Assembly (NCBI GenBank): GCA_017407225.1 | Contig: JAFQWY010000128.1 | Span: 15,365 to 79,364 of the forward strand | DNA length: 64,000 nucleotides | DNA from: Clostridia bacterium | Lineage (GTDB): Bacteria > Bacillota > Clostridia > Oscillospirales > CAG-272 | Reading direction: 5' to 3' | In this document: piece by piece, positions 3,552 through 24,492 of the stretch | How positions within the stretch are numbered: the first letter of the stretch is position 1 | Layout of the letters: each line of letters opens with the position of its first letter | Notes under the pieces: model-generated | The model's input: only the letters and a program-made list of their open reading frames with translations | Told to the model about the DNA's origin: nothing | The model's database searches: none | Program-made: the position numbers and the translations under genes

Positions 3552-3645
3552 GGGAAAACTCCTTTACGCATTGTTGTTGTTCCTATTATAGCATATCGAC
3601 CGGGCAGCTGCAAGAGAAATCCGCTGTAATCCGGAACGGGAGGCG

Positions 3646-3686
3646 AAAAAGACTGCCTGCCGAAAGGAATCGGTAAGCAGTCTTTT
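3646..3686 (-). terminator. Intrinsic terminator downstream of the GH20 gene
   Basis: AAAGACTGC ... GCAGTCTTT stem. The minus-strand U-tract comes from AAAAA at 3646..3650. Confidence 0.75.
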
Positions 3687-3710
3687 GTTGGTATCTGGCT
3701 TCAGACGGGA

Positions 3711-6700
3711 TTATTTAACGGTGATGGTGTAGGTGTCGGATACAGAGGCAGTGCCTGCTGCAGCGTTGAGGGTGTAAGTAATCGAGCCGGTAGTCTTGCC
3801 GACGGAAACGCTGACAACCCAAACCTTTACGGTATCACCGGAGCTCAGAGTCTGAATCTTGGAGGTGCAGAGTTTGATGGTCTGACCGTCAATGGTGATT
3901 TTGTCTGCGTTGGGGGAGGTAGTAACGCGCAGGTTGACATTCTTGCCCTTGGCTACGGATTTGGAAAGGGGCATGATGCTGATGATTTCCACAGCTTCAA
4001 CGTCTGCAGCCACAAGGTTATTGCCGGCTTCGATGAGTGCAGCAGCAGCCGCATTGATCGGTGCCTGAGTAGCGGAGGAAAGTGCAGCCTGAGCATTGGT
4101 AAGAGCCCCTGCATATGCGTCCCAGCTCTCGGAAGTATACGCAGATGCATCGGTGTAAGCATTCGCGATCAGGTTCTTCAGGTGGTTGGAGTTGGGTGTA
4201 TCCGCATAAAGAACGCAGACAACATCGCCGTGTTTTACAGAACCCTTGATGAAGCCGCTGCCGTCATTGGAAGCGAGAGGGGTGAAGGTGTATACCTTGG
4301 TTCCGTTTACTGCTTTGAGGAAGGAGTAACCGGTGATGGAGGGGAGGTAATACTCGATGGTGTCGGTGGAATCGGAAAGGGCAGTGATCTTTCCTTCTTC
4401 GATGACATCGCCGCCTTCGGAGGTCATAACCAGAGTGAAGTAGAATTCGGGCAGTACTTCTTCGCCTTCTTCAGCCTCTTTCAGTGCATTCTTTGCATCC
4501 TGAAGAGCCTTGATTGCCGCGTTCATTTCTGCTTCGGTAGCCTTGTAGTCGGCATTGAGCTTTTCGGCAGCGGTGTATGCGTTTTCGTAAACGGCATAGC
4601 TTGCGGCGGTGTATGTGCCGTCAGCATTGGAAATCTTGTTCTTGAGAGCTTCGGTCAGTGCGGTGTGATCGGCCACATATTCGTACTTGAGAGCCTTGGC
4701 AGCAGCCTGGAGATTTTCAACAGCTTCCGCAACCTCTTCTTCGGTAGCGCCGTAGTCTGCACATACCTCTTCGGCAGCGGCGTATGCTTCTTCGTAGTCG
4801 GCATAGCTGTCGGCGGTGTAGGTGTTGTCGTCGTTGGAAATCTTATTCTTGAGTGCTTCGATCAGCGCGCTGTGGTCAGCAAGATATGAGCGTTCGGGAA
4901 CAACTGCATCGGGGAGTTCTGCATCCTTGGAGCAGCCGGTGAATCCGGGGAAGTGGTTGGGCGTCGAGGTTCTGAATCTGTAGACAGCATCGCGGACTGC
5001 AGCGAAGTCATCGTAGTTTACGGTGGAATTTACATCGGCGTTCCACATCTTGATGATGTTGGAGGCCATGCGGTCGAAAATGTAGTAAGTGAGGTTCTGA
5101 CCGACAGAGTCTTTTGCGCCGTTCCAAACTTCAGCTTCGGTGTTCAGGGCTGCATAGTCGTTCCAGATCAGGAAGTATGCGCCGCCCAGCTGCTCTGCGG
5201 GAACATCTGCTGCATTTTCGGTGTAAACACCCTTTTCGCTGATGTCGGCAGGATACCATTCGTTGTAGATATCTTCTTCGTTGGAGTGGTAGAAGGTCCA
5301 GTTGCGGTTGTCGGGGTCACGGGCATCGAGGTGAGAACCGGAAGTACCGATACGGAGCACGTAATAGCAGTTGGTCTGGATGCAGTTGTACATGGTGCGT
5401 CCGCCGTCGCCCCAGTTGTCGGATGTGCCGGTGTTGGTTTCCCAGAAGAACTTCACATGCCAGGTGGGATCGGTCCACTTACCTGTACTGGGATTGAAGT
5501 CGGAGTTCCAGTACATGATTTCGATATTGGGATCGAAGCTGTAGATTGCCTTTTCGGAGCTGCTCTGGTTGTAGGTGGTGGAGCCGATGAAGTCGTTGTA
5601 CATACGGCAGGTGTAGCCTTTGGCGTTCAGGATACGGTTCAGCTCATTGATATATCCCGGGAAGTCGGAATAGCTCCACAGGGGACCGTAGCTGCTGGAG
5701 AGGTTTACTTCGTCGGCGCCGATGGCAAAGTCAACGGAGCCTGCGTATTCCTTGAAGAAATCGGCGATGTCTTCGTAAATGGCAAATACGAAGGCTTTCG
5801 CCATGTCGCTCTTAATATTTACTGTAGTATAATAGGGCCATTTGGGGGAAGAATAGCCGGTGGTGTCGGTGTAGTTGATGCATCCCTTGTTGGAGGAAGC
5901 GTAATAGGTGGTTCCGTTATAGGTGAAGGAATAGGAGGTGTTCTCCTTGTAATTCTGTTCGAATTTCCAGGAGATATAGTCCATGTGTGCGGGGCTGTCG
6001 AAGGAAGGAACGATGTCAATGTGGTATTCTTTTGCAACATTGATGATTTCGATCAGCTCGGCAGTGGTCAGATACTTGCCTGCATCGGGGTCATCTCGGT
6101 AAGGATCCTTGACCCAGGACTGGATATGGCTGCCGCAGAGCCAGCTGAAGTCGTTTTCGGGATTGTAGTTTGCGTTGTAGTAAGTGGGATCCCAGAAATC
6201 GGCACGGAAACCGCCGTCTTCGGAGAAGTGCAGGGTCAGGGAGTTGTAGCCCATCCAGGACATCTGGCGGATGAAGTTGCAGATCCATTCAACGGTGTAG
6301 TATTTTCTCGCAACGTCCAGCTGAACGGCACGTTCCTTGGTATCCGGTGCATCGGCTGCAATAAAACCGGAAAGGGTAGTGCTGTTGAGCAGGAACTTCA
6401 TGAGCATATTGGCGCCGTAGATCAGTCCATCGGTGTCGGATGCATAAACGACTGCCGCATCGGAAACGTTGAGTTCGTATCCTTCCGCAGCAATGTCGGA
6501 AACGATGACGAGTACGATGTCGCCGGATCTTACGTAGGACTGGGGTCCCCATACAAGCTCGGCATCTGCAAGCAGGGGGAACATTTCGCGGAACTGACGG
6601 TGGAGGAGCTGAGAGGTCTGAAGGAGATCATCGGTGGGCTCGGAGGTGCTTGCGATGAAAATTCGGCTGGACGAGGTGAGCGTGAAAGTGCCGTCCGCAG

Positions 6701-6830
6701 CGCTGTAGCTGTCCAGCAATGCACCGATATTCTTCGATGTAACTGCCGCGGAGGTGGGGATGACCATTGCTGTACAGGTCATGACAGCCGCGAGTACACC
6801 GGCTGCGAGCTTCTTGACAAGCTTGTTCAT
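3711..6830 (-). CDS. Secreted GH20 beta-N-acetylhexosaminidase / lacto-N-biosidase-like enzyme with FIVAR-type repeats and a C-terminal Ig-like domain
   Basis: 1039 aa. N-terminal signal peptide (MNKLVKKLAAGVLAAVMTCTAMVIPTSAA). GH20 motifs SFDSPAHMDY and IGADEVN (Asp-Glu catalytic pair). Two clear tandem repeats of about 70 aa (ADH[ST]AL.EALKNKISN.D.TYTA.SYA.YE.AY.AAE) plus a third degenerate copy. A beta-rich tail follows. Confidence 0.85.
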   Translation of the reverse strand: MNKLVKKLAAGVLAAVMTCTAMVIPTSAAVTSKNIGALLDSYSAADGTFTLTSSSRIFIASTSEPTDDLLQTSQLLHRQFREMFPLLADAELVWGPQSYVRSGDIVLVIVSDIAAEGYELNVSDAAVVYASDTDGLIYGANMLMKFLLNSTTLSGFIAADAPDTKERAVQLDVARKYYTVEWICNFIRQMSWMGYNSLTLHFSEDGGFRADFWDPTYYNANYNPENDFSWLCGSHIQSWVKDPYRDDPDAGKYLTTAELIEIINVAKEYHIDIVPSFDSPAHMDYISWKFEQNYKENTSYSFTYNGTTYYASSNKGCINYTDTTGYSSPKWPYYTTVNIKSDMAKAFVFAIYEDIADFFKEYAGSVDFAIGADEVNLSSSYGPLWSYSDFPGYINELNRILNAKGYTCRMYNDFIGSTTYNQSSSEKAIYSFDPNIEIMYWNSDFNPSTGKWTDPTWHVKFFWETNTGTSDNWGDGGRTMYNCIQTNCYYVLRIGTSGSHLDARDPDNRNWTFYHSNEEDIYNEWYPADISEKGVYTENAADVPAEQLGGAYFLIWNDYAALNTEAEVWNGAKDSVGQNLTYYIFDRMASNIIKMWNADVNSTVNYDDFAAVRDAVYRFRTSTPNHFPGFTGCSKDAELPDAVVPERSYLADHSALIEALKNKISNDDNTYTADSYADYEEAYAAAEEVCADYGATEEEVAEAVENLQAAAKALKYEYVADHTALTEALKNKISNADGTYTAASYAVYENAYTAAEKLNADYKATEAEMNAAIKALQDAKNALKEAEEGEEVLPEFYFTLVMTSEGGDVIEEGKITALSDSTDTIEYYLPSITGYSFLKAVNGTKVYTFTPLASNDGSGFIKGSVKHGDVVCVLYADTPNSNHLKNLIANAYTDASAYTSESWDAYAGALTNAQAALSSATQAPINAAAAALIEAGNNLVAADVEAVEIISIMPLSKSVAKGKNVNLRVTTSPNADKITIDGQTIKLCTSKIQTLSSGDTVKVWVVSVSVGKTTGSITYTLNAAAGTASVSDTYTITVK

Positions 6831-6922
6831 AAATTAACATTTACCTTCCTTTTCAGAATCCGCATGATGCCTGATGCAGTATGAAACTTCCGCATTTCTG
6901 CCGATTCTGTGTTGTTGCACCC

Positions 6923-6951
6923 ATTATATCACACCTATACAGCGAAAGCAA
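6923..6951 (-). promoter_or_regulatory. Sigma-A-type promoter of the GH20 gene
   Basis: Minus strand: TTGCTT-17 nt-TATAAT, about 90 nt upstream of ATG 6830. Confidence 0.6.
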
Positions 6952-6976
6952 GATGTTTTTTCGAGTTTTTGCGCTA

Positions 6977-7018
6977 TTTTATGCGATTGCATAAAATATT
7001 TTACACAATCGCATAAAA
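6977..7018. repeat. 42-nt near-perfect palindrome (candidate operator) upstream of the GH20 promoter
   Basis: TTTTATGCGATTG-CA-TAAAATATTTTA-CA-CAATCGCATAAAA. The 13-nt arms are perfect complements and the 12-nt centre is itself palindromic. A further half-site-like ATATGCGTTTG lies at 7023..7033. Confidence 0.8.
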
Positions 7019-7056
7019 TAAAATATGCGTTTGTATAAAATAACTTTGGCGGATGC

Positions 7057-7093
7057 CGAAAAAATGCATGGAGGGGAACAGAACCCTCCATGC
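7057..7093 (-). terminator. Intrinsic terminator of the PqqD-peptide-kinase-rSAM operon
   Basis: Perfect 10-bp stem GCATGGAGGG / CCCTCCATGC with an 8-nt loop. The minus-strand tail is ATTTTTTCG. Confidence 0.85.
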
Positions 7094-7119
7094 GGTGGAT
7101 TGAAGAATATGAATCAGAT

Positions 7120-8232
7120 TCATTTGCGGAAAGATTCTGCCACTGTACGCAGTTCTTCCTTGTACGCCCGGTTCAGCCGGCACATGTAATCCGGTCTGCC
7201 ATCCAGTGTGCCGGTTTCCGTATAGACAACGGCAGCGCAGTTGAGGCAGGTATCGCGGTCGGGGCAGCTGACACAGTCCGGGCAGAGACGGATGGATGCA
7301 CACGCTTCGTGAAGCTGTTTCCAGCATTCCGTGAAAGAAGAGCTGAACGGACGGAAACAGATATTGTCCAGCATTCCGCAGGGCAGCATTCTTCCGTCCC
7401 AGGTGATCCAGAACTGCGAGTGCCCGGCCAGACAGCGGATCGGGTCACCCAGATCGGATTCGCAGGGGTTGGGATGGGCAGGTGCGTTTTCGGCAATTCT
7501 GCGGGTGATTCCCTCAATTCCTTCCCGGATAAAGATATCCCGGACGGCACATTGCGCGGCTTCTTCGGGGGATAGCCGTGAAAAACCGTCTGAAGAGGGA
7601 ACATCGGCACGGCGAACGGGAGGGAAACAGTAAGTGGTAGTCTGCAGATCCAGGTGATGTGCGGCCGCAAATGCTTCCAGCTCGTCAAGACGATGCCTGT
7701 TCTGGGGCGTGAGCGTGGTATTCAGATGCAGGAGAATTCCCTCCGACTGTAGCCATTCAATATTTTCGGTGACCTGCCGGAAGACATCGCCGTTACCGCA
7801 CAGGGCAGCATAATCCTCGGCGGAGGTGCCGTACAGGGTGATATTGACCTGCGCCGGGGGAAGCCGATGCCAGAGACTGCGGATTTCCGGGGTGAGAAGA
7901 GTGCCGTTGGTATTGATGCTGATGGAGAGACCGAGCTTTACGAATTCTTCGTAGAGATATGGAAAATCCTTGCGGAGAGTGGGTTCGCCGCCGGTGATCA
8001 GCAGAAAGAGGAGACCGGCATCCCTTGCGTCCCGTGCGAGCGCGATCCACTCTTCAGCAGTGACTTCGCGGCCGATTCTGCTCATTTCTTCCGGAGACAG
8101 CCGGATATAGCACATTTTGCAGGAGAGGTTGTATCGCGGTGTCAGCTCAAAAGTGCCGCTTACCGGAATTCCCCGGGCAGCACATCTGCGCTGAAGGGTG
8201 CGGCGGATTACTGCGGTATCAGTATGTTCCAT
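7120..8232 (-). CDS. Radical SAM / SPASM-domain peptide maturase (non-canonical YX3CX2C cluster motif)
   Basis: 370 aa. TPRYNLSCKMCY sits where T.RCNL.C..CY is expected. GGEPTL SAM-binding motif. The C-terminal SPASM signature is C-x13-G-x4-C followed by CPDCVSCPDRDTCLNC. The start overlaps the upstream gene by 14 nt. Confidence 0.85.
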   Translation of the reverse strand: MEHTDTAVIRRTLQRRCAARGIPVSGTFELTPRYNLSCKMCYIRLSPEEMSRIGREVTAEEWIALARDARDAGLLFLLITGGEPTLRKDFPYLYEEFVKLGLSISINTNGTLLTPEIRSLWHRLPPAQVNITLYGTSAEDYAALCGNGDVFRQVTENIEWLQSEGILLHLNTTLTPQNRHRLDELEAFAAAHHLDLQTTTYCFPPVRRADVPSSDGFSRLSPEEAAQCAVRDIFIREGIEGITRRIAENAPAHPNPCESDLGDPIRCLAGHSQFWITWDGRMLPCGMLDNICFRPFSSSFTECWKQLHEACASIRLCPDCVSCPDRDTCLNCAAVVYTETGTLDGRPDYMCRLNRAYKEELRTVAESFRK

Positions 8233-9097
8233 GTCGGGACTCCTTTCCGAACAAAGTCCGGTAAGCCATGAATGCTGCGTCGCTGTCCGGGCGGCAGTCG
8301 AGGCGGTAAACCGGGATTTCAGCCAGCATATCGTGATAGAGCTGCAGAAGCGTCTGCATAAATCCGGTATCCCAGCTGTTCACGAGGGTCTGGGACAGAA
8401 GTAGGGGAACCGCTGCAGATCCGAGAGAGGTCAATCGGTTTTCGGTGCATTTGCACGGCAGCAGAATCCCTGCGATGGGAAACTGTTCCGGACGGTGGAT
8501 GCCGGAGGTACCGCACCAGGGTGAGCCGCCTCCGTAAAAGACTCCGTTCCGGTTCATGACGACACAGCGGTCGCCGTTGAGGATTTCTGCTCCGAGATGT
8601 TTCTGCCAGAGGGAGGCCTGCGTGGATTTTCCGGCACAGGCGGATCCGGCGAACAGAACCGTTTTTCCGTGAAGGGAGACAACGGAGCTGTGGAGGAGAA
8701 AGGCATTCCGGCGGATGAGCATGATTTCAGGGGCGAGAAAACGGAGGGGCTGCAGCGGATGGGAATAAAAATGCCAGGACGAAGCGGGATAATACAGAGT
8801 ATTTTTTTCGTCCGGGCGCAAAAGACAGGCCACCTGGCATCCATTTTCTGCGGTAAGCGCATGATGGATGCGAAGCCGGCCTTGTTTGGTCAGATACTCG
8901 GTTACGCCGTTTTCCGAATGAAGCACCGTACCCGTGGGGCGGAGGGGCTCATCCAGCAAACGGATGTAAAATTCAACATCCGGAGTATCGGTGTCATCGC
9001 AGCGGAGATCCGTCAGGGAAGAGGGAAGCTCCGCGCCGTGAGGAATATGAAACCGTACGGTAATTCCGGAGAAGAAAATACACAGGGGGAACGTCAT
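8219..9097 (-). CDS. HPr-kinase-like (HprK C-terminal domain family) P-loop protein, putative peptide kinase
   Basis: LLHSSVVSLHGKTVLFAGSACAGKSTQASLW resembles the HprK/P-loop core. The start is uncertain. ATG 9097 lies 7 nt after the peptide stop and has no SD. The alternative ATG 9160 would overlap the peptide gene. Confidence 0.7.
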   Translation of the reverse strand: MTFPLCIFFSGITVRFHIPHGAELPSSLTDLRCDDTDTPDVEFYIRLLDEPLRPTGTVLHSENGVTEYLTKQGRLRIHHALTAENGCQVACLLRPDEKNTLYYPASSWHFYSHPLQPLRFLAPEIMLIRRNAFLLHSSVVSLHGKTVLFAGSACAGKSTQASLWQKHLGAEILNGDRCVVMNRNGVFYGGGSPWCGTSGIHRPEQFPIAGILLPCKCTENRLTSLGSAAVPLLLSQTLVNSWDTGFMQTLLQLYHDMLAEIPVYRLDCRPDSDAAFMAYRTLFGKESRHGTY

Positions 9098-9104
9098 GGA
9101 GGAC

Positions 9105-9362
9105 TCAGGAACTGAAAGCTGCGTTTGCGTTGGTGTGGTAGCAGATGGAGTCGAATTCATCCATGCCGATCGGGTAGTCGACGCAGGAACCTTCGTTGAA
9201 GAAGCCTTCCCATGCGAGGTCCTTCATCTGGTTGGTGGAATCGTCGTCTCTCTTGACACATTCGGAATCTGTGAAGTTGATTTTTGTTGAGCAGGTTGCG
9301 ATGGACTGGGTGAGTTCAAAGTACTCAACTGCCATTTCGGGCTTCTGGTAAGTTTTCTTCAT
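9105..9362 (-). CDS. Candidate RiPP precursor peptide (85 aa, acidic, 4 Cys, C-terminal Ser-Ser)
   Basis: The ORF fills the gap between the PqqD and kinase genes on the same strand. The N-terminus MKKTYQKPEMAVEYFELTQS has Y-x-x-P-x-M and a Thr 13 residues after the Tyr, as in lasso-type leaders. Cys at 24, 35, 60 and 74. It ends ...NANAAFSS. The SD is weak (AAGGCAGG). Confidence 0.55.
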   Translation of the reverse strand: MKKTYQKPEMAVEYFELTQSIATCSTKINFTDSECVKRDDDSTNQMKDLAWEGFFNEGSCVDYPIGMDEFDSICYHTNANAAFSS

Positions 9363-9380
9363 TTATAATATGCCTGCCTT

Positions 9381-9659
9381 TCAGTTGGATTGGTTGTCGG
9401 TGAGGAAGCCTTTCTGCCGGAGCTGGCTGACAAACTCAGCAACATCCTCGGCAGCCTGACTGGGGGTGATTTCATATTCATCCAGCAGGGCGGCGGTAAG
9501 ATCTTCTTCTGTACGCTCTGTCTGCAGAAGCTCGAACAGGAAACGGGCACACTCGTTCAGCGTGATGATGCCCGAGAGTTTCCGGGATGCTTCGCCGGTG
9601 GGGACAACGATGGTTTCGCCCGCGATTTCGCGGATGATGAAGCCGGGGATAATTCGCAT
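9381..9659 (-). CDS. PqqD-family peptide chaperone (RiPP recognition element)
   Basis: 92 aa from ATG 9659. The sequence ...GIITLNECARFLFELLQTERTEEDLTAALLDEYEITPSQAAEDVAEFVSQLRQKGFL matches the PqqD winged-helix pattern. The longer ORF to 9962 is an artefactual extension across the promoter. Confidence 0.85.
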   Translation of the reverse strand: MRIIPGFIIREIAGETIVVPTGEASRKLSGIITLNECARFLFELLQTERTEEDLTAALLDEYEITPSQAAEDVAEFVSQLRQKGFLTDNQSN

Positions 9660-9716
9660 GATAAGAGCTGTTCCTTTCCGTGGGACTTCAGAGTGCAGAA
9701 TAAAGATACATACCAT

Positions 9717-9745
9717 ATTATACTCCAAAAAAAACGTTTTGGCAA
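9717..9745 (-). promoter_or_regulatory. Sigma-A-type promoter of the PqqD-peptide-kinase-rSAM operon
   Basis: Minus strand: TTGCCA-17 nt-TATAAT, about 57 nt upstream of ATG 9659. Confidence 0.65.
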
Positions 9746-9808
9746 TAGGGTTGCGTAAAATTATTCGCAAATGGATGAAAAAATTATCCTGAATTGTAAA
9801 AAATACCA

Positions 9809-9837
9809 TTGACGGCAGGGAAAAGGCGTGATATAAT
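9809..9837 (+). promoter_or_regulatory. Sigma-A-type promoter of the fibro-slime gene
   Basis: TTGACG-17 nt-TATAAT. A leader of about 140 nt, with hairpin potential, precedes ATG 9977. Confidence 0.65.
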
Positions 9838-9976
9838 AAGTTATGAATATAGTGACGTACTGTACCCGTTCGCGGAACAGATGCCGTACTGCATGGCAGA
9901 TGCAGAATACGGTGATCGCAGCGGTCGCCGTATGACAGAAATATCCAGAGAGAATTCTCCAAGGAGGAATATACTA

Positions 9977-12900
9977 ATGAAGAAAAAAAGTATGAGCAGC
10001 AGAATTCTATCGTCTCTGCTCGCGCTGGTGATGGTGCTCTCGGCAGTGCCCCTCAGCGTATCCGCCGCATCCAAGGGCGACCTTGCGAATGTCGATACCG
10101 GTCTGTCCGGGAATATTGACACCGACAAGGTTTACAGCCTTCCGATTACCATCCTCGACTACGAAGCCGACGGTATGCTCTTCGAGTTTGCGGAATCAAA
10201 CGGACAAAAAAAGCCCAGCGATTTCGGTGCTACATATGTCTGTGACTACACCGATGACTTTAAGGATGTAAACGGTTATACAGGCGATAAGACCGACACC
10301 GTTATTTACAAATATACAGCCGACTATTCCGTCAATCTGCAGAATTCGGGAAATGACGGACAGTTTATGCGTGTGAACTATCTGAGCGATGGTGATAACG
10401 ACGGTACAGACTATATTACCAATTTCACTTCCTCGGTTTATGACGATGCTACCGGTACAGACTATAAGCTGAGCCAAATCAGATATCTTGTCTTTGTATA
10501 CAGATGCCCGACTGCCGGAACTATCAGCAGCAGCTCCATGTCCTTCTCTCTGTATACCGGAACTTCTTTCGGCAGCGATCCTTCTGCTTCCAAGAAAACC
10601 AATGAGTTCAGCATCAGCAGAAACGATAACTGGAAGTATCAGATCGTTGACCTTTATGAAACCGGAGAAGAGGCTAATACTGCCGTAAACGGTATTCTGA
10701 TGAATTCTCCTGTCAAGAAATCCGGAGATATCATCGATGTCGCATATGCGGTATACTTTGATACCGACAGCTATGCACTGGCACAGGCGTTTGCGGAATA
10801 CGCAGTAACCAAGGGCAGTGACAACGGTGACCACCGTGGTTTTGGTATGCTTCGCGGTTCTAATAACGAATCCGGCACCACTGTTTTCGATGCTGCATAC
10901 GAGCACAGTGATACGGCATCCACCGTCAAGCTTATGTCTACTTATAAGGACAGCAGCGGTACCGATTTGGCGAGCATCGATTTTTCTACTATTGATAATT
11001 TCGGCTATAAACTTTTCGGTATCTTCGATGACAACGGTATCGGTACTGCCGGACTTCTGGAAAGCAGTCTCAGCGATGAAGGATATCCCGTATATAAGGA
11101 AAAAGTTGTCTCCTATCTGGCAAATCTTCTTCAGGTTTCTCTGGAAATTCCCGAAAGAACAGAGGACGGCTGGAAGAACTACAAGTACATCAAGGGTACT
11201 CCGTCTGACGTATACGGCGGCGTGGACTTTGCAACCGCGCTCCGCACCAGAATCAATGCTGATGACAAAACCGATGAAGAGGCTCTCGGCGCCTATGACG
11301 AATCCGCAGCGAAGGGCCTGATCGGCACCTGGGAAAAAGTCGAAGGAAAAATTTCCACTTACTTCGATGCGGCATACTTCATACTGAACAGTATTTTTGT
11401 GGACAACTCCTACAATGTTCCTCAGGATGACTACAAGTATCTGGTTCTCTCCCAGGGTACCGACGCTGATACCGGGGATACCGTTCATGTATTTGACGCC
11501 GGTTTCGCAACCACGAACGATCCCGACACGGCTGAAATGGCAATCGCTTATGATACGGATGCCAAGACTATTCAGAACTCATCTGCGGCGGGCAAGGCGC
11601 ATTTCTATTATACCGCCTCCAATACCACAACGCTGAACCCCTTCCTGCCCGTAACCGACAGAAACACAGAGGCAGGTCAGACCAAGAGCGTGTACTGGCA
11701 GGATGACGGTCTGATCAATACGGTCAAGAAGCAGGCAAACAAGGATACCCTGTACAAGCACAACTTCAACTTCGCAATCAAGAGTGAAGGTGAATTCGTA
11801 TACCGTGCGGAAGACAATCTGTTCTTCGACTTTGAAGGCGACGACGACGTTTACCTGTTCATCAACGGCGAACTGGTGATGGATATCGGCGGCGCGCACA
11901 GTATCAACCATGTCCGTTTCGAACTGAACGATTACGTCAACGCCGCAAAGGCTGGTACCGATCTCGGTTCCACAAAGCGCAACGAAGCGCTCAACCTCAA
12001 GGAAGGTCAGTCCTATTCCTTCAGGTTCTATTACATGGAACGCCACAGCTACGGTTCCAATATGCGGATCATGACCAACATCCCCGTAACCGACCCCTTC
12101 ATGAAGGTGGAAAAGACCGCATATCAGAACGGTGTGCAGATCGCATACGGCGGTATCGTTGACAAGGATGCAGTCGTTGAATACGGCTTTACTGTCGAAA
12201 ACCCCGTGAATACTGCTGACGACGAGATCGATGACAGCATCAGCATTGAACCTCTCGTTGAACTTGCATTCGATGACCATGATATCGGCATCAGGATTTC
12301 CCACGACAAAGGACTTGAAGTCACCGGTTCCGATGTCTATATGCTCGACGGAACCAAACTGACCAGCTCCAATGTCAATGAATTCCTGGAAGCCGGACTT
12401 CTGAAGATTTCCAGAATCGACTCCGACGGCAATGAAATTCCCTATGAAGTCAAGAACCAGGACAACGTCAAGTCCATCCTCAACGACCCCGGACAGGGTA
12501 CTGCCGATGATCCCATCGGTCTGATCAGCGGCGAAAAGCTGGTTGTCAGAGGCTTCGGCTATAAACTGACTAAGACTCAGGTGGAAGCAGGCTTCTTCGA
12601 CAACACTGTATACGCGGAAGCAACCGGTGAAGTGACCGGCGAACCTCTCCAGAGCCAGGCGAGAATGCGTGTATACGTTCCCGCTGACCCGATGTACTAT
12701 CAGTGGGCAGGCAAGCCTCTGGTGGTTACCATTGACAAGCTGATTACAGATGTCAAGGCGGCTGCTGCGGATGACGACAATATTCTTCACAAAGATAATG
12801 AAGAGATTCAGAACCTTACCGCGAAGAACATCAAGAGCGTGGCGTTTGTAAACCGTACAGGGGATCAGACCATCGTCTATGACCATGTTGCCAAGGCTTC

Positions 12901-15094
12901 CAACAACGATCTGACGATCAATTATCCCGAGGCAGGGTCCTACGTATTCTACGTAAAGATCACCTACAGTACTTCCAGCCCCGTTACCGTTCCCGTTCTG
13001 GTCAACGTACCCGATGTCAAGGACAGCAGCTATGTTCTCGACTACGGTCTTGAGGTTGACCTGACCGCGGCACTGTTCACCAAGGAAGATCAGGTGGCTA
13101 TCCCCGGACGTTCCACCAATACTTCCATTATGGCAATCAGCAGCCAGCAGCCTTCCTACACATCGAACACCATCGGCTTTACTGCTGATACCGACGGTCA
13201 GATTGCTGGCAGCAACGGTACTTTCAAGCTGGCTGACGGCAAGCTCACCTATACCCCCACCGATTTCCTTGACAGTGCAGATTCCGTGTGGGTGGCAGTG
13301 AACGTTTATGAAGGCAACTCCTTCAGCCCGGTATCCTCCGAAGCGGGTCAGGCTGACGATACGGGTATCGATATCAACAATGAAGTACAGATGTACAAGA
13401 AGATTACGGTTCTTCCCGCAACCGTCATGTACTACGAAGATTACTTCAGCGCAATTAGCTACCCCGACCATACCAGAACCACTCCCGGTACCGTTTACAC
13501 CCAGTCCGCGGATCAGGATGAAAACTACGGTCACGATGCTGCATATCAGACTGCCGATGCAGGCAATCTGAACAGCAGCAACTCCGTACAGACACTTGAA
13601 ATCACCGATTCCTCTACTCTCGCATCCTTTACCATCGCAGGTTCCGGTTTTGAACTGATTGCCCGCACCGACGCGGAAACTTCCGGTACCATCATTGTGG
13701 ATGGTAATAAGCAGGTACAGAAATCCAGCAGCAGCGCACCTGCTTCCGCTCATATTCTGGATCTGGAAATTACCAGAGTTCCCGATGCTTCTATGCTTGG
13801 TGAAGGAAGCTCCGGTGCTCAGACTCACTGGAGAGTTCCCGTTATCATGCAGTTTGACAACGGCAACGACTTCGCCGATAATGAGATTAACGAAGCAATT
13901 TATCAGGTTCCCGTTATCCGTTACGATTTCCCCTCATCCGGCACTTACATCGTAAATGTTATCGGTGTTCCCAAGCGTGATCATGCAAACGGCGGTGCGG
14001 TTCTTCCTTCCTACCTCTATTTCGATGGTCTCCGCGTATTCCAGCCCATCGGTGCTTCCAATTCCGCTTACTCCGCAGATGAAAACGGCGCGGTGTTCTA
14101 TGAAGTACGGGATGAAATCGCGGGCGGCCAGATTGCAGTAGCATCCTATACCGCAGATACTGCTAAGGTTGTTACAAGCGGCACTATGACCTGGACCGAA
14201 GATTATTCCGACGGCGGCGTCTTCACTGATGTTTCTTCCGTTGAGGCATATTTGTTCAGCGGTCCCAACAACGAAGCATATATGCGGGACGGAGCTGCCA
14301 TGGTCTTCTATGTGAAGGAAACCGGCACCGGTGCTCATTCCCTGCAGGTTGCTCTGCGTGCGGTGGATTATTTCCTCGCATCTTCCGGTGTTGAAGTCGG
14401 TATGGAAGCTGCCATCCAATACGGTATCATCAAGGACGGCGCATTTGCATGGGCTCCCCTTGTTACCGCAAAGAGCGGCACCGAACAGTACTACACCATC
14501 GACTATACCCAGTGTCCTCAGGTGAACGGTGCATACCAGATTGCTCTCAGAGTGAATGGCGATGAAACCGAGCAGGGCATGGTATCCTACAGCAGCCTGA
14601 AGCTGGTTGGTCTGGAACTTACCGAAGCAATTACCGTTTCTTCCGGCAGTTCTCCTGCAATTTCCGCAATCTGCGCACAGATGGATGCAACCGAAATTAC
14701 TCTCCCTGCTTCCAATGTAATCGTTCCCAAGCCCTATGCTCCCATCCAGTTCCCCGAAAAGCCCCAGGATAAGCCCGAGCAGAACGAGCCTGAAACCGAT
14801 GGCAATGAAGAAGGAAAGAACGAAGAACGCAAGGAAGATCTGATTCCTCTCCTGTCCCTGTGCAAGCTTGATGTAACGGCAGGCGACGGCGGTACCGTAA
14901 CTCCCGAAGGAGATCTGGTAATCGCATTCGGTGCAAAGCGTGTCATCAAGGCTGTACCCGATGAAGGCTACGAAGTGGAAGGCATCTACGTCAACGGCAA
15001 GAACGTCGGCGCGGCTGAAAAGTACACGGTAGTAGCTACCGGCAACATGAAGGTTGAAGTGAAGTTTGTCAAGACCGATGCTTCTGCCGAATAA
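9977..15094 (+). CDS. Very large secreted protein with a fibro-slime (PA14-like) domain and a C-terminal bacterial repeat domain
   Basis: ATG 9977 is preceded by AAGGAGG. Signal peptide MKKKSMSSRILSSLLALVMVLSAVPLSVSAAS. The fibro-slime signature F.FEGDDDVYLFINGELVMDIGGAHS...FYYMERHSYGSNMRI lies at about nt 11755-12090. The C-terminal GYEVEGIYVNGK-type beta repeat follows. No LPXTG, SLH or dockerin motif was seen. Confidence 0.8.
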   Translation: MKKKSMSSRILSSLLALVMVLSAVPLSVSAASKGDLANVDTGLSGNIDTDKVYSLPITILDYEADGMLFEFAESNGQKKPSDFGATYVCDYTDDFKDVNGYTGDKTDTVIYKYTADYSVNLQNSGNDGQFMRVNYLSDGDNDGTDYITNFTSSVYDDATGTDYKLSQIRYLVFVYRCPTAGTISSSSMSFSLYTGTSFGSDPSASKKTNEFSISRNDNWKYQIVDLYETGEEANTAVNGILMNSPVKKSGDIIDVAYAVYFDTDSYALAQAFAEYAVTKGSDNGDHRGFGMLRGSNNESGTTVFDAAYEHSDTASTVKLMSTYKDSSGTDLASIDFSTIDNFGYKLFGIFDDNGIGTAGLLESSLSDEGYPVYKEKVVSYLANLLQVSLEIPERTEDGWKNYKYIKGTPSDVYGGVDFATALRTRINADDKTDEEALGAYDESAAKGLIGTWEKVEGKISTYFDAAYFILNSIFVDNSYNVPQDDYKYLVLSQGTDADTGDTVHVFDAGFATTNDPDTAEMAIAYDTDAKTIQNSSAAGKAHFYYTASNTTTLNPFLPVTDRNTEAGQTKSVYWQDDGLINTVKKQANKDTLYKHNFNFAIKSEGEFVYRAEDNLFFDFEGDDDVYLFINGELVMDIGGAHSINHVRFELNDYVNAAKAGTDLGSTKRNEALNLKEGQSYSFRFYYMERHSYGSNMRIMTNIPVTDPFMKVEKTAYQNGVQIAYGGIVDKDAVVEYGFTVENPVNTADDEIDDSISIEPLVELAFDDHDIGIRISHDKGLEVTGSDVYMLDGTKLTSSNVNEFLEAGLLKISRIDSDGNEIPYEVKNQDNVKSILNDPGQGTADDPIGLISGEKLVVRGFGYKLTKTQVEAGFFDNTVYAEATGEVTGEPLQSQARMRVYVPADPMYYQWAGKPLVVTIDKLITDVKAAAADDDNILHKDNEEIQNLTAKNIKSVAFVNRTGDQTIVYDHVAKASNNDLTINYPEAGSYVFYVKITYSTSSPVTVPVLVNVPDVKDSSYVLDYGLEVDLTAALFTKEDQVAIPGRSTNTSIMAISSQQPSYTSNTIGFTADTDGQIAGSNGTFKLADGKLTYTPTDFLDSADSVWVAVNVYEGNSFSPVSSEAGQADDTGIDINNEVQMYKKITVLPATVMYYEDYFSAISYPDHTRTTPGTVYTQSADQDENYGHDAAYQTADAGNLNSSNSVQTLEITDSSTLASFTIAGSGFELIARTDAETSGTIIVDGNKQVQKSSSSAPASAHILDLEITRVPDASMLGEGSSGAQTHWRVPVIMQFDNGNDFADNEINEAIYQVPVIRYDFPSSGTYIVNVIGVPKRDHANGGAVLPSYLYFDGLRVFQPIGASNSAYSADENGAVFYEVRDEIAGGQIAVASYTADTAKVVTSGTMTWTEDYSDGGVFTDVSSVEAYLFSGPNNEAYMRDGAAMVFYVKETGTGAHSLQVALRAVDYFLASSGVEVGMEAAIQYGIIKDGAFAWAPLVTAKSGTEQYYTIDYTQCPQVNGAYQIALRVNGDETEQGMVSYSSLKLVGLELTEAITVSSGSSPAISAICAQMDATEITLPASNVIVPKPYAPIQFPEKPQDKPEQNEPETDGNEEGKNEERKEDLIPLLSLCKLDVTAGDGGTVTPEGDLVIAFGAKRVIKAVPDEGYEVEGIYVNGKNVGAAEKYTVVATGNMKVEVKFVKTDASAE

Positions 15095-15231: not shown

Positions 15232-15264
15232 AGATAGCAGAATACAATATTTATGGAGGATCAC

Positions 15265-23960: not shown

Positions 23961-23968
23961 ATGTTATT

Positions 23969-24000: not shown

Positions 24001-24492
24001 GTGTTTATTCAACCAATGAAAGAGATTATCAAAACCATCGATGCGCTGGAATCCGGTGATGAACTGGCTGAGCTGATCGCAGCAGGCGCAAAAATTCCGA
24101 TTGTCGTTACAGGCTCCAGTATGCTGCCCTTTCTCAGAAACAAACGGGATACTGTATGGCTGATGAAGGAAGAAAATTACAAAAGAGGTCAGATTCTGTT
24201 TTTCCGCCGGGATAACGGTATGTTTGTTCTGCACCGGATCCGCAGGGTATACCCGGACGGGCGTATGCTTCTCAACGGCGATGCCCAGACAGCCTGTGAA
24301 ATCATACGTCCGGATCAGGCATTGGCTGTGGTGTATGCGGTCAGCCGGAACGGAAAGACGAAACCGGCAGATTGTCTGTTGTGGAAGCTGCGGGATTTGC
24401 TCTGGTATCCCACAAGACCGCTCCGGCCTGTGATCTTCAGCATATACAGGAAGCTGCGGAGTCTGTTCCGGAAAGCAACGGAACAATCATGA
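24001..24492 (+). CDS. S24/S26-family (signal-peptidase/LexA-like) serine peptidase
   Basis: VTGSSMLPFL nucleophile-Ser motif and a beta-rich core. The start is uncertain (GTG 24001 or ATG 24016), and neither has a strong SD. Confidence 0.6.
   Translation: MFIQPMKEIIKTIDALESGDELAELIAAGAKIPIVVTGSSMLPFLRNKRDTVWLMKEENYKRGQILFFRRDNGMFVLHRIRRVYPDGRMLLNGDAQTACEIIRPDQALAVVYAVSRNGKTKPADCLLWKLRDLLWYPTRPLRPVIFSIYRKLRSLFRKATEQS

What the first reader, a model, noticed from the sequence alone, without database searches (positions are those of the whole stretch)
9105..9362. Candidate precursor with a lasso-type leader signature and C-terminal Ser-Ser, but a core that cannot form a lasso macrolactam
**Seen in sequence.** The peptide is MKKTYQKPEMAVEYFELTQSIATCSTKINFTDSECVKRDDDSTNQMKDLAWEGFFNEGSCVDYPIGMDEFDSICYHTNANAAFSS. 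Tyr5-x-x-Pro8-x-Met10 and Thr18 reproduce the Y-x-x-P-x-L ... T(-2) spacing. From memory, this spacing characterises lasso leaders bound by PqqD-like B1 proteins. The N-terminus also looks strikingly like the paeninodin-type leader MKKxYxKPxLxV....T. The peptide ends in Ser-Ser, and kinase-associated lasso precursors end in Ser, which is the phosphorylation site.

**Why it cannot be a lasso.** If cleavage occurred after Gln19, core positions 7-9 would be T-K-I. There is no Asp or Glu there to form the macrolactam, and the locus has no lasso cyclase or B2 protease.

**Inference.** The four Cys (24, 35, 60, 74), embedded in Asp/Glu/Thr/Ser-rich sequence, are plausible donors for rSAM-installed thioethers (sacti- or ranthipeptide-like). 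The putative core of about 66 aa is unusually long.
Basis: partly seen in the sequence, partly recalled or inferred. Interest (0 to 1): 0.75.

Follow-up and report, generated by a model that had tools for sequence, protein, structure and literature searches.

The report
Lasso-like leader on radical-SAM peptide precursor
This small gene encodes a real, conserved 85-residue precursor peptide from gut Clostridia that pairs the leader, chaperone and serine-kinase parts of a phosphorylated lasso-peptide pathway with a radical-SAM enzyme in place of a lasso cyclase, and it is always encoded next to a giant secreted sugar-binding protein, a combination not described before.

Summary
The ORF is real.

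- **Conservation.** There are 76 full-length homologues and 251 clusters at 50% identity. dN/dS is about 0.1-0.2. Tyr5 and Pro8 are invariant. The four Cys are 86-99% conserved. Ser is the last residue in 98% of representatives.
- **Operon.** The order is PqqD chaperone, peptide, ScmC-type P-loop protein, radical-SAM/SPASM enzyme.
- **Lasso links.** The leader aligns with the paeninodin leader (hhalign 83%, E 9e-6). The ScmC-type protein has an HPr-kinase fold and is homologous to a paeninodin-family lasso kinase (hhalign 96.5%, E 8e-10).
- **Not a lasso.** No cyclase or B2 protease is found in the window or related loci. There is no Asp/Glu at core positions 7-9. The paeninodin precursor model is not matched.
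- **New context.** In at least six gene orders, one fully interleaved, the four genes travel with a secreted giant fibro-slime/PA14 protein, and in most of them with a GH20 hexosaminidase.

Most likely mechanism, inferred rather than shown: PqqD binds the leader, the kinase phosphorylates the terminal Ser, the radical-SAM enzyme crosslinks the Cys-containing core, and the product acts outside the cell.

In this window the radical-SAM enzyme carries Cys34Tyr in its essential cluster motif, so this copy may be inactive.

The parts
9717..9745 (-). Promoter-like site (TTGCCA, 17 nt, TATAAT) upstream of the PqqD gene
   Evidence: Consensus scan, 11 of 12 matches. Consistent with an operon start but not proof.
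9381..9659 (-). Stand-alone PqqD-family peptide chaperone (RRE), 92 aa
   Evidence: PF05402 E 5.2e-18. Best NCBIfam subfamily is lasso_PqqD_Strm at E 6e-8, below its cutoff. Homologues are 88-92 aa, which supports the ATG at 9659 over longer ORF calls.
9105..9362 (-). The finding: 85-aa precursor peptide (stop codon 9105-9107)
   Evidence: Translation. 76 homologues and 251 clusters at 50% identity. dN/dS about 0.1-0.2.
9294..9362 (-). Leader region, residues 1-23 (MKKxYxKPxΦxVExFxLTQxIAx). Candidate cleavage sites: after Q19, after I21, or before C24
   Evidence: Y5 and P8 100%, E13 96% conserved. hhalign to the paeninodin leader Prob 83%, E 9e-6. The cleavage site is inferred, not shown.
9108..9116 (-). 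C-terminal Phe83-Ser84-Ser85. The family motif is F-x-S-COOH, the candidate phosphorylation site
   Evidence: F83 87%, S85 98%, and Ser is the terminal residue in 116 of 126 representatives. Paeninodin ends YDS and a Priestia relative ends FES.
8219..9097 (-). ScmC-type (PF27840) HPr-kinase-fold P-loop protein, 292 aa. The start lies 7 nt after the peptide stop
   Evidence: Precomputed PF27840 hit on the window's own protein. AF2 pLDDT 93. Best PDB folds are HPrK/P (E 3e-6, prob 1.0) and PEPCK. hhalign to a lasso-cluster kinase Prob 96.5%, E 8.4e-10. Invariant H136, G151, G156-K157-S158-T159, D176.
7120..8232 (-). Radical-SAM/SPASM enzyme, 370 aa, overlapping the ScmC-type gene by 14 nt
   Evidence: PF04055 E 8e-21. 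Full-length similarity to mycofactocin and GeoRSP SPASM maturases, far below their cutoffs. Conserved C-terminal Cys set C267, C285, C320, C323, C329, C332, C351.
8131..8133 (-). TAC codon: Cys34Tyr in the CX3CX2C [4Fe-4S]/SAM motif of the radical-SAM enzyme
   Evidence: All 120 listed homologues have Cys here, including the 99%-identical P0346. The window is the only one of 64 aligned sequences without Cys here. It is a single G-to-A difference from contig L017.
7066..7093 (-). Terminator-like hairpin plus T-run just after the radical-SAM stop
   Evidence: Consensus scan: 10-bp stem with 7 GC pairs.
9977..15094 (+). Divergently transcribed giant secreted protein (1705 aa from the likely ATG) with a fibro-slime/PA14 domain. 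It is the conserved partner of the peptide system
   Evidence: PA14 E 2.4e-10. TIGR02148 fibro-slime E 1e-20, above its cutoff. Orthologues or paralogues sharing PA14 plus a ~550-aa C-terminal domain are present in all 17 distinct loci with enough flank.
3711..6830 (-). Secreted GH20 beta-N-acetylhexosaminidase-family protein (1039 aa). A frequent partner gene
   Evidence: GH20 Pfam hits on orthologues. Co-located in 10 loci. Fused to the giant protein in L016. Interleaved between the ScmC-type and radical-SAM genes in L018.
24031..24477 (+). S24/SipW-like peptidase homologue. A possible leader peptidase, 14 kb away inside an exopolysaccharide-type gene block
   Evidence: Weak Peptidase_S24 (E 2.6e-4) and archaeal-type signal peptidase I (E 6e-5) hits, both below cutoffs. 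Homologues lie directly beside PqqD in L023 and in Butyrivibrio pNP243. The assignment to this system is tentative.

Best explanation
The ORF encodes the substrate (precursor) peptide of an uncharacterised ribosomal-peptide maturation system of gut Clostridia (Oscillospiraceae and Lachnospiraceae).

**Shown here.**
- It is a translated, strongly conserved gene.
- It is co-operonic with a stand-alone PqqD chaperone, an HPr-kinase-fold ScmC-type protein homologous to a kinase encoded in a paeninodin-family lasso cluster, and a radical-SAM/SPASM enzyme.
- Its N-terminus is homologous to the paeninodin-type lasso leader.
- No lasso cyclase or B2 protease is present.
- The gene set is always linked to a secreted giant fibro-slime/PA14 protein, and in most loci to a GH20 enzyme.

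**Inferred pathway.**
1. PqqD binds the MKKxYxKPxΦ leader as lasso B1 proteins do.
2. The ScmC-type kinase phosphorylates the invariant C-terminal Ser of the F-x-S end on the leader-bearing precursor.
3. The radical-SAM/SPASM enzyme crosslinks the roughly 62-66-residue core at the four invariant Cys, most likely as Cys-to-carbon thioethers.
4. The leader is removed, possibly by the SipW/S24-like peptidase. The product is exported by an MsbA-type ABC exporter where one is encoded.
5. The mature peptide works outside the cell together with the giant protein and GH20.

In relatives that also carry an NTP_transf_5 gene, the phosphate may be glycosylated as in pseudomycoidin.

In this window the radical-SAM enzyme has Cys34Tyr in its SAM-cluster motif. 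No exporter or membrane-anchored partner is present. This copy may therefore be non-functional, or the change may be an assembly error.
For: **Real, translated gene.**

**Operon anatomy.** 18-nt and 7-nt intergenic gaps and a 14-nt gene overlap. Promoter-like and terminator-like sites bracket the four genes.

**Component identities.**
- PqqD.
- Radical SAM with a SPASM-type Cys set.
- ScmC-type protein: PF27840; AF2 pLDDT 93; best folds HPrK/P then PEPCK; hhalign to the Priestia lasso-cluster kinase Prob 96.5%, E 8.4e-10 over 191 columns, with the His, P-loop and Asp motifs aligned; direct tblastn of that kinase hits the ScmC-type genes of 12 related loci plus the window.

**Leader homology.**, with the sequences.

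**Terminal aromatic-x-Ser** is shared with paeninodin-family precursors.

**Published precedents.**
- HPrK-type lasso kinases phosphorylate the C-terminal Ser of the linear precursor: PMC8498205.
- The B1 chaperone accelerates phosphorylation: PMC10368454.

**Accessory genes in a distant relative.** L023 has, in one operon: giant protein, peptide, ScmC, radical SAM, NTP_transf_5, S24-like peptidase, PqqD, ABC exporter. This is the accessory set of the psm lasso cluster (K, N, B1, D; PMC6993621) with a radical-SAM enzyme replacing the cyclase and B2.

**Linkage to giant protein and GH20.** Seen across at least six gene orders and down to about 26-39% protein identity, including a fully interleaved operon (L018) and a giant-GH20 fusion (L016).
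Against: - No chemistry is known. Thioethers, phosphorylation, cleavage site and export are all inferred.
- The AF2 model of the peptide is uninformative (pLDDT 57).
- The peptide is conserved along its whole length rather than showing a hypervariable core. That fits a structural or cofactor role better than a classical antimicrobial.
- The window and most close relatives encode no protease or exporter inside the core gene set.
- The peptide has no Sec signal, so an extracellular role is not demonstrated.
- The window's ScmC-type protein has only marginal direct sequence similarity to HPrK (E about 0.1) and fails the TIGR04249/04352/04355 cutoffs.
- A Butyrivibrio ScmC-type locus has a candidate peptide that does not end in Ser.
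- The window's radical-SAM enzyme lacks an essential Cys.
Confidence: 0.6

Rival explanations
1. The peptide is a QhpC-like crosslinked small subunit or a protein-derived cofactor, not a free natural product. It would be matured in the cytoplasm by the radical-SAM enzyme and become a permanent component of an extracellular complex with the giant fibro-slime/PA14 protein and GH20. This is a refinement of step 5 of the best explanation and is also the 'novel case'.
For: - End-to-end conservation of the 85 residues.
- The peptide gene directly follows the giant gene, with 6-19 nt gaps, in L018 and L023. It lies immediately downstream of the giant-protein match or gene in L002 set 1, L007-L010, L012 and L021.
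- Structural and maturation genes are interleaved in L018.
- The giant protein and GH20 are fused in L016.
- Precedent: quinohemoprotein amine dehydrogenase. Its gamma subunit QhpC has a 28-residue leader and three Cys-to-Asp/Glu thioethers made by the radical-SAM enzyme QhpD. Its structure is mostly random coil, and the gene order of its operon is variable (PMC7876137; PMC10114670).
- The nearest NCBIfam radical-SAM matches include the cofactor maturases PqqE and MftC.
Against: - No direct evidence of any physical interaction.
- No exporter in most loci.
- GH20 enzymes are not known to need a partner peptide (established knowledge).
- The window itself lacks the membrane-anchored partner.
Confidence: 0.25
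2. The peptide is an ordinary sactipeptide- or ranthipeptide-type bacteriocin precursor. The neighbouring giant protein and GH20 would be unrelated passengers of a shared genomic island.
For: - Radical-SAM/SPASM plus chaperone plus a Cys-containing peptide is the standard sacti/ranthipeptide recipe (PMC10114670).
- All loci come from related gut Clostridia, so some of the synteny could be inherited.
Against: - Linkage survives at least six rearrangements and deep divergence: giant protein 26% identity, peptide 34%.
- The core is long and conserved, not hypervariable.
- No immunity gene or C39-peptidase exporter is present.
- No known precursor model matches.
Confidence: 0.12
3. The peptide is not the substrate. 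The radical-SAM enzyme would mature the secreted giant protein or GH20, as anaerobic sulfatase-maturating enzymes do, and the small protein would be an accessory or regulatory factor.
For: - The SPASM family includes maturases of secreted enzymes such as anSME (PMC10114670).
- There is tight linkage to secreted proteins.
Against: - The peptide carries the RRE-type leader motif with invariant Tyr and Pro.
- It carries the kinase-type F-x-S end.
- It has four near-invariant Cys.
- No peptide-like segment exists inside the giant proteins (hmmsearch).
Confidence: 0.05
4. It is a true (atypical) lasso peptide precursor.
For: Paeninodin-like leader, a PqqD chaperone, an HPrK-type kinase and a terminal Ser.
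Against: - No cyclase or B2 protease in the 64-kb window or any related locus.
- No Asp/Glu at core positions 7-9 in either register.
- No hit to NF033524, while the positive controls score 57 bits.
Confidence: 0.01

Closest known systems
Phosphorylated Firmicutes lasso peptides (paeninodin pade cluster; pseudomycoidin psm cluster)
   Same: - The leader MKKxYxKPxL... has the same Tyr/Pro/hydrophobic spacing.
- A stand-alone PqqD/B1 chaperone is present.
- An HPrK-fold kinase homologue is present.
- The precursor ends in aromatic-x-Ser-COOH.
- Distant relatives (L023, L016, L006) also carry an NTP_transf_5-type nucleotidyltransferase. L023, L015, L006 and L003 carry an MsbA-type ABC exporter.
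   Different: - No Asn-synthetase-like cyclase and no B2 protease.
- No ring-forming Asp/Glu.
- The core is about 62-66 residues with four invariant Cys.
- A radical-SAM/SPASM enzyme takes the place of the cyclase.
- The paeninodin precursor model is not matched.
- The system is linked to a giant secreted protein and usually GH20.
SynChlorMet (SCM) cassette: ScmC, ScmD (PqqD-like), ScmE/ScmF (two radical-SAM/SPASM enzymes). Defined bioinformatically; from my memory of the TIGRFAMs description, no precursor had been identified
   Same: Same three protein types. The P-loop protein falls in Pfam PF27840 'ScmC'.
   Different: - One radical-SAM enzyme, not two.
- All NCBIfam SCM equivalog cutoffs are missed by a wide margin.
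- Different taxa.
- Here a precursor family is identified.
QhpC/QhpD of quinohemoprotein amine dehydrogenase
   Same: - A leader-bearing multi-Cys peptide of about 80-110 residues is crosslinked by a radical-SAM/SPASM enzyme.
- Its gene is shuffled among genes for large exported partner proteins (PMC7876137).
   Different: - No cysteine tryptophylquinone Trp.
- No QhpE or QhpG homologues seen.
- The partners are a PA14/fibro-slime protein and GH20, not cytochrome or dehydrogenase subunits.
- An HPrK-type kinase and a separate PqqD are present.
Sactipeptides and ranthipeptides (e.g. subtilosin, ruminococcin C, SCIFF peptides)
   Same: A radical-SAM/SPASM enzyme plus a Cys-bearing precursor in Clostridia.
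   Different: - Those precursors are much shorter.
- The RRE is usually fused to the enzyme.
- They have no kinase.
- No known precursor or maturase model is matched above its cutoff.

Membership tests
Lasso peptide (paeninodin family) | Precursor matches NCBIfam NF033524 lasso_PadeA_fam (cutoff 27 bits) | tested here: not met
   No hit at E<=0.1 for the window peptide. The positive controls PadeA and the Priestia precursor score 57 bits.
Lasso peptide (paeninodin family) | Leader with Y-x-x-P-x-L and Thr at -2 | tested here: inconclusive
   Y5 and P8 are invariant and position 10 is hydrophobic. hhalign to the PadeA leader gives Prob 83%. In the ungapped register T18 is -2, but it is Thr in only 46% of the family. 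In the canonical Y(-17) register (PMC10368454), -2 is the variable residue 20.
Lasso peptide (paeninodin family) | Asp or Glu at core position 7-9 for the macrolactam | tested here: not met
   T-K-I with cleavage after Q19, or I-N-F with cleavage after I21. The family consensus has no acidic residue there.
Lasso peptide (paeninodin family) | Asn-synthetase-like cyclase (C) and transglutaminase-like B2 protease in the locus | tested here: not met
   tblastn with the Priestia cyclase and B2 and the Butyrivibrio Asn-synthase-like protein gives no hit at E<=0.01 in the window or any related locus.
Lasso peptide (paeninodin family) | HPrK-type precursor kinase and a C-terminal Ser (phosphorylated subclass only) | tested here: met
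   hhalign Prob 96.5%, E 8.4e-10 to the Priestia cluster kinase. Fold match to HPrK/P. Terminal Ser 98%. Kinase activity itself is not testable here.
SynChlorMet (SCM) cassette | ScmC protein | tested here: inconclusive
   Pfam PF27840 ScmC is precomputed on the window's own protein and its homologues. NCBIfam TIGR04249 (cutoff 125 bits) gives no hit for the window protein and 15-18 bits for relatives.
SynChlorMet (SCM) cassette | ScmD PqqD-type protein (TIGR04248, cutoff 100 bits) | tested here: not met
   21.8 bits.
SynChlorMet (SCM) cassette | Two radical-SAM/SPASM enzymes, ScmE and ScmF (cutoffs 400 bits) | tested here: not met
   One radical-SAM gene per set. It scores 63 and 44 bits.
Sactipeptide / ranthipeptide | Radical-SAM enzyme with SPASM/twitch auxiliary-cluster domain next to a Cys-bearing precursor | tested here: met
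   PF04055. Conserved C-x12-G-x4-C, C-x2-C-x5-C-x2-C and a distal Cys. The precursor has four conserved Cys. The window copy has Cys34Tyr.
Sactipeptide / ranthipeptide | Cys sulfur to alpha, beta or gamma carbon thioether crosslinks in the product | not testable with these tools
   Needs mass spectrometry or NMR of the modified peptide.
Sactipeptide / ranthipeptide | Match to a curated maturase or precursor model | tested here: not met
   StsB 51 bits against 625, AlbA 40 against 850, SkfB 42 against 300. No precursor model hit.
QhpC/QhpD-type crosslinked subunit | Peptide is a stoichiometric subunit of the neighbouring exported proteins | not testable with these tools
   Only conserved, shuffled and interleaved synteny supports it. 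Needs co-purification or complex modelling.
RRE-dependent RiPP precursor (generic) | Small conserved ORF adjacent to a PqqD-type recognition protein and a modifying enzyme, with a conserved N-terminal recognition segment | tested here: met
   PqqD lies directly upstream of the peptide in the window and in L001, L002, L003, L005, L006, L015, L016 and L017.

The most novel reading that the evidence does not exclude
A radical-SAM-crosslinked, C-terminally phosphorylated (and in some lineages phosphoglycosylated) 60-odd-residue peptide serves as a dedicated small partner or subunit of giant extracellular fibro-slime/PA14 proteins and GH20 hexosaminidases in gut Clostridia. This would be a ribosomal-peptide maturation pathway, assembled from lasso-peptide parts plus a radical-SAM enzyme, whose product is a structural or functional component of a cell-surface glycan-handling machine rather than an antibiotic or a soluble cofactor.
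Probability: 0.25. Interest if true: 0.85.

Novelty: new variant of a known kind. Interest (0 to 1): 0.7.

Why it matters
1. **A substrate for ScmC-type proteins.** This gives the first concrete substrate family and a testable activity (C-terminal Ser kinase) for ScmC-type proteins (PF27840). As far as I could find, these have no described function: four literature searches returned nothing.

2. **Modular evolution between RiPP classes.** The leader, B1 chaperone, kinase, nucleotidyltransferase and exporter set of phosphorylated lasso peptides has been recombined with a radical-SAM/SPASM enzyme instead of the cyclase and B2 pair.

3. **Breadth and unusual shape.** The family is widespread in uncultured gut and rumen Clostridia: 251 peptide clusters and 869 ScmC-type homologues. 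Its precursor is unusually long and conserved from end to end.

4. **An unprecedented linkage.** Its obligatory linkage to a giant secreted carbohydrate-binding protein, usually with a GH20 hexosaminidase, has no precedent I know of for a RiPP system. It could connect peptide modification to host-glycan or exopolysaccharide biology.

5. **An experimental handle.** A cultured strain, Butyrivibrio fibrisolvens D1 (plasmid pNP243), carries a related ScmC/PqqD/S24 module.

Tried and rejected
- **Plus-strand reading** of 9105-9362: meaningless.
- **Pfam, NCBIfam and PADLOC scans of the peptide:** no real family. The ISAon1 hit (E 0.007, 17 bits against 55) is spurious.
- **PADLOC on the enzymes:** only generic radical-SAM similarity to viperins. 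Not a defence system.
- **AF2 of the peptide:** pLDDT 57, so not used.
- **Sequence search of the ScmC-type protein against PDB:** nothing for the single sequence. The profile gave only P-loop-level hits, with HPrK at E about 0.1. The fold search was needed.
- **PDB sequence search of the giant protein:** nothing.
- **Literature searches** for ScmC, SynChlorMet, 'HPr kinase' + SPASM, and 'HPr kinase' + radical SAM + RiPP + PqqD: no paper. A further search for HprK, RiPP and radical SAM found no listed paper that mentions HprK.
- **Papers not held:** Haft & Basu 2011, Zhu et al. 2016 and Hegemann et al. 2018.
- **Peptide-like modules inside the giant proteins, or extra peptide copies in the window:** none.
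- **Cys counts in the giant, GH20 and anchor proteins:** no obvious partner-Cys pattern.
- **Short contigs of the closest relative (L013, L014):** they did not reach the radical-SAM motif. The 99%-identical P0346/L017 did.
- **Lasso-peptide reading:** rejected (see membership tests).
- **Spurious-ORF reading:** rejected on conservation and dN/dS.
Full report
**1. Observation**

The finding's coordinates hold an 85-codon ORF on the minus strand (9362..9105, ATG to TGA). The plus-strand translation is meaningless. All stated positions are correct: Tyr5, Pro8, Met10, Thr18, Cys24/35/60/74, and the Ser84-Ser85 end.

The ORF is not a chance reading frame.
- A word-indexed search of 5.8 billion proteins returned 76 full-length homologues at 49-99% identity.
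- A profile built from them found 251 clusters at 50% identity with E<1e-3.
- Codon-level comparison of syntenic genes gives dN/dS of 0.10-0.20 for pairs with unsaturated dS, median 0.17.

Among 126 full-length cluster representatives the conserved positions are: Tyr5 100%, Pro8 100%, a hydrophobic residue at position 10, Glu13 96%, Phe/Tyr15 95%, Cys24 99%, Cys35 86%, Phe55 94%, Cys60 97%, Cys74 99%, Tyr75 91%, His76 82%, Phe83 87%, Ser85 98%. Ser is the very last residue in 116 of 126.

- Position 18 is Thr in 46% and Ser in 38%.
- The penultimate residue is variable, so the conserved end is Phe-x-Ser-COOH rather than Ser-Ser.

**2. Local anatomy**

On the minus strand the order is as follows.
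- A promoter-like site (TTGCCA, 17 nt, TATAAT; 9745-9717).
- A 92-aa PqqD-family protein (9659-9381; PF05402, E 5e-18).
- After 18 nt, the peptide.
- After 7 nt, a 292-aa P-loop protein (9097-8219).
- Overlapping it by 14 nt, a 370-aa radical-SAM enzyme (8232-7120; PF04055, E 8e-21).
- A terminator-like hairpin (7093-7066).

The radical-SAM enzyme has a conserved SPASM-type C-terminal Cys set: C267-x12-G-x4-C285, C320-x2-C323-x5-C329-x2-C332, and C351. It shows full-length but far sub-threshold similarity to MftC, GeoRSP, PqqE, AhbD and NirJ-type enzymes. It is therefore a separate SPASM subfamily.

**3. The P-loop protein is an HPr-kinase-fold enzyme related to lasso-peptide kinases**

- Homologues, and the window's own protein (P0077), carry the precomputed Pfam family PF27840 'ScmC'. 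There are 869 homologues at E<1e-3.
- An AlphaFold2 model built on 31 homologues is confident (pLDDT 93). Its best PDB matches are the catalytic domain of HPr kinase/phosphorylase (1kkl, E 3e-6, probability 1.0, TM 0.51 on the target) and then PEP carboxykinases, which share that fold.
- A Priestia aryabhattai plasmid carries an annotated paeninodin-family lasso cluster. I used its kinase gene, which is annotated 'aldolase', as a reference.
- A profile comparison of the ScmC-type family with this kinase gives probability 96.5%, E 8.4e-10 over 191 columns. The alignment pairs LHSSVV...GK.VLFSG.SGAGKSTQA with LHGSAI..NGKAYAIVGDSGAGKSTLA, and NGDRCV with SDDVIPV.
- His136, the P-loop residues and Asp176 are invariant in the family.
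- Direct tblastn with the lasso kinase hits the ScmC-type genes of the window and 12 related loci.

**4. The leader is lasso-type but the peptide is not a lasso**

The published paeninodin precursor is MKKQYSKPSLEVLDVHQTM|AGPGTSTPDAFQPDPDEDVHYDS (PMC11594732). The Priestia relative is MKKEWKKPELEVLDVNKTM|LGG...DLTFES. The family consensus here is MKKxYxKPxΦAVExFxLTQxIAxC...FxS.

A profile comparison with PadeA gives probability 83%, E 9e-6, and 42% identity over 24 columns. Three pieces of published work bear on this.
- YxxPxL occupies positions -17 to -12 of lasso leaders, with Thr at -2, and B1 accelerates kinase action (PMC10368454).
- HPrK-type kinases phosphorylate the C-terminal Ser of the linear precursor (PMC8498205).
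- In pseudomycoidin a nucleotidyltransferase then adds hexoses (PMC6993621).

Both lasso precursors and this family end in aromatic-x-Ser-COOH.

Against lasso membership:
- the peptide does not match NF033524, while the controls score 57 bits;
- there is no Asp/Glu at core positions 7-9 in either plausible register;
- no cyclase or B2 homologue exists in the 64-kb window or in any related locus.

The cleavage register is ambiguous.
- The ungapped paeninodin register gives Thr18 = -2 and cleavage after Gln19.
- The canonical Tyr(-17) register, which is also the hhalign register, puts cleavage after Ile21 with the core starting at Ala22.
- The conserved Ile21-Ala22-[Ser/Ala/Gly]23 before invariant Cys24 also resembles a signal-peptidase-type site. 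This last point is inference only.

**5. Conserved genomic context, the main new result**

I collected 17 distinct related loci from metagenomes and GTDB genomes. The named sources are Oscillospiraceae, Faecousia, 'Clostridiales' and Lachnospiraceae MAGs. In every locus with enough flank, the peptide, PqqD, ScmC-type and radical-SAM genes are accompanied by a Sec-secreted giant protein of 1,200-3,400 aa. That protein carries a fibro-slime/PA14 domain (TIGR02148, E 1e-20; PA14, E 2e-10) and a shared ~550-aa C-terminal region. Most loci also carry a secreted GH20 enzyme and a membrane-anchored protein of about 237-385 aa with a conserved ~170-aa ectodomain.

The gene order differs between loci.
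- Window: GH20 <- rSAM <- ScmC <- PEP <- PqqD | -> giant.
- L002: PqqD > PEP > ScmC > rSAM > anchor > giant > GH20.
- L003: rSAM <- ScmC | PqqD > PEP > anchor > giant > GH20.
- L009 and L010: giant > PEP > GH20 > PqqD > ScmC > rSAM.
- L018, a distant relative (peptide 34%, giant 26% identity): PqqD > giant > PEP > ScmC > GH20 > rSAM, all interleaved in one operon.
- L023, another distant relative: anchor > giant (2,485 aa) > PEP > ScmC > rSAM > NTP_transf_5 > S24/SipW-like peptidase > PqqD > ABC exporter.

In L016 the giant protein and GH20 are fused. L002 holds a second paralogous set (93-aa peptide, ScmC, rSAM) between two other giant proteins.

Co-occurrence through this much rearrangement and divergence argues for a functional unit rather than inherited neighbourhood. 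The L023 operon contains the same accessory functions as the psm lasso cluster (K, N, B1, D) with a radical-SAM enzyme where the cyclase and B2 would be.

**6. Mechanism**

Shown:
- a translated, conserved gene;
- the identities and folds of its neighbours;
- homology of the leader and of the kinase to the paeninodin system;
- absence of lasso enzymes;
- conserved linkage to the giant protein, usually with GH20.

Inferred:
- PqqD binds the leader;
- the ScmC-type enzyme phosphorylates Ser85 on the leader-bearing precursor;
- the radical-SAM/SPASM enzyme crosslinks the core at the four Cys, with thioethers the commonest SPASM chemistry on Cys peptides (PMC10114670);
- the leader is removed, and the S24/SipW-like peptidase is a candidate because it sits beside PqqD in L023 and in Butyrivibrio pNP243;
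- export occurs through an MsbA-type ABC exporter where one is present;
- the product has an extracellular role with the giant protein and GH20.

The peptide's end-to-end conservation resembles the QhpC gamma subunit of quinohemoprotein amine dehydrogenase, which is largely unstructured (PMC7876137), more than a bacteriocin. The peptide's low-confidence AF2 model gives no evidence either way. I give the partner-subunit reading about 0.25 probability.

**7. State of the system in this window**

The radical-SAM gene reads Y-NLS-C-KM-C, so the first Cys of the CX3CX2C motif is Tyr (TAC, 8131-8133). All 120 listed homologues, including a 99%-identical protein, have Cys there. In an alignment of 64 sequences the window is the only exception.

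A 7,290-bp contig from another sample (L017) differs from the window at only five positions. Four of the five are nonsynonymous and fall in the peptide (Q45P and K47T in L017) or in the radical-SAM enzyme (C34Y and L261Q in the window).

The window also lacks the membrane-anchored partner, an orthologous exporter and the nucleotidyltransferase. It does have the S24-like peptidase homologue at 24031-24477, inside an exopolysaccharide-type block of CpsB, a surface Ig-like protein, two Wzz/BY-kinase proteins and LytR. This copy may be inactive or decaying, or the SNP may be an assembly error. I could not distinguish these.

**8. Comparison with known systems, and novelty**

The system works like a phosphorylated lasso pathway at the recognition and tailoring end, and like a sacti/ranthipeptide or QhpD system at the core-modification end. 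It is a member of neither class.
- The lasso defining features (cyclase, B2, acidic ring residue, precursor model) were tested and not met.
- The SCM cassette cutoffs are not met, although the Pfam ScmC family is.
- No curated sacti- or ranthipeptide model is matched.

Four literature searches for ScmC, SynChlorMet, or the combination of HPr kinase with SPASM or radical-SAM RiPPs found nothing. A fifth search listed no paper that mentions HprK. I therefore rate it a new variant of a known kind: an RRE-dependent radical-SAM peptide system. Its architecture is unusual and undescribed, and its link to giant secreted glycan-binding proteins is unexplained.

**9. Limits**

- No chemistry, binding, export or interaction has been measured.
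- The synteny census covers 17 loci, not the whole family.
- Most loci come from related uncultured Clostridia.
- The PF27840 assignment is a precomputed annotation, because the local Pfam copy lacks the model.
- The statement that the SCM cassette has no known precursor rests on my memory of the TIGRFAMs description.

Noticed in passing
window 8131-8133 (-): The radical-SAM enzyme has Tyr instead of the first Cys of the CX3CX2C SAM-cluster motif (C34Y, one G-to-A change). All 120 listed homologues and the 99%-identical P0346 have Cys. The copy is probably inactive, or this is an assembly error.
   Followed up: yes
window 3500-11300 compared with L017: There are only 5 SNPs in 7,290 bp between two samples. 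Four are nonsynonymous and all four lie in the peptide (Q45P and K47T in L017, hitting an otherwise invariant Lys) or the radical-SAM gene (C34Y and L261Q in the window). This suggests relaxed or disruptive selection on the system within this species, but the numbers are small.
   Followed up: partly
window 24031-24477 (+): A small S24/SipW-like peptidase homologue, with weak hits below the curated cutoffs. Its homologues sit directly next to PqqD in L023 and overlap the PqqD stop in Butyrivibrio fibrisolvens pNP243 (L026). It is a candidate leader peptidase replacing lasso B2.
   Followed up: partly
window 19217-26009 (+): An exopolysaccharide or capsule-type block: CpsB/CapC, a surface Ig-like protein, two Wzz/BY-kinase fusions and LytR-CpsA-Psr. 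Overlapping sets of such genes flank the peptide cluster in L001, L015, L016 and L023.
   Followed up: partly
window 26066-28816 (-): An adjacent TldD/PmbA metalloprotease pair. From memory, this family is known to process some ribosomal peptides such as microcin B17. No link to this system was tested.
   Followed up: no
window 15253-19044 (+): A 1,263-aa GH38 alpha-mannosidase with an F5/8 type C domain lies between the giant protein and the exopolysaccharide block. It is not seen in the other loci.
   Followed up: no
L016 1-7319 (-): The giant fibro-slime/PA14 protein and GH20 are fused into one protein of more than 3,404 aa with CBM26. This is a Rosetta-stone hint that the two work together.
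   Followed up: partly
L002 3682-6034 (+): A second, paralogous set (93-aa peptide, ScmC-type and radical-SAM genes) lies between a VWA-domain giant protein and a 1,201-aa giant protein. It sits upstream of the main set and apparently shares one PqqD gene with it.
   Followed up: partly
L026 (Butyrivibrio fibrisolvens D1 plasmid pNP243) 11596-13619: A cultured rumen strain carries a ScmC-type protein, a 57-aa ORF with the same MKKAYVKPEL leader start but a Cys/Pro-rich core ending RIW, PqqD and an S24/S26 peptidase. Two nucleotidyltransferases and an Asn-synthase-like (lasso cyclase-type) gene lie nearby. There is no radical-SAM gene in the 24 kb shown.
   Followed up: partly
L008 and L009 (same Faecousia MAG): Two contigs of one MAG carry identical peptide genes next to giant-protein genes. 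This is either a duplicated locus or assembly redundancy.
   Followed up: no
window 9381-9962 (-): Mechanical ORF calling extends the PqqD gene to 193 aa (TTG), and gene callers on L013 and L017 gave 142 aa. Homologues of 88-92 aa and the promoter-like site support the ATG at 9659.
   Followed up: yes
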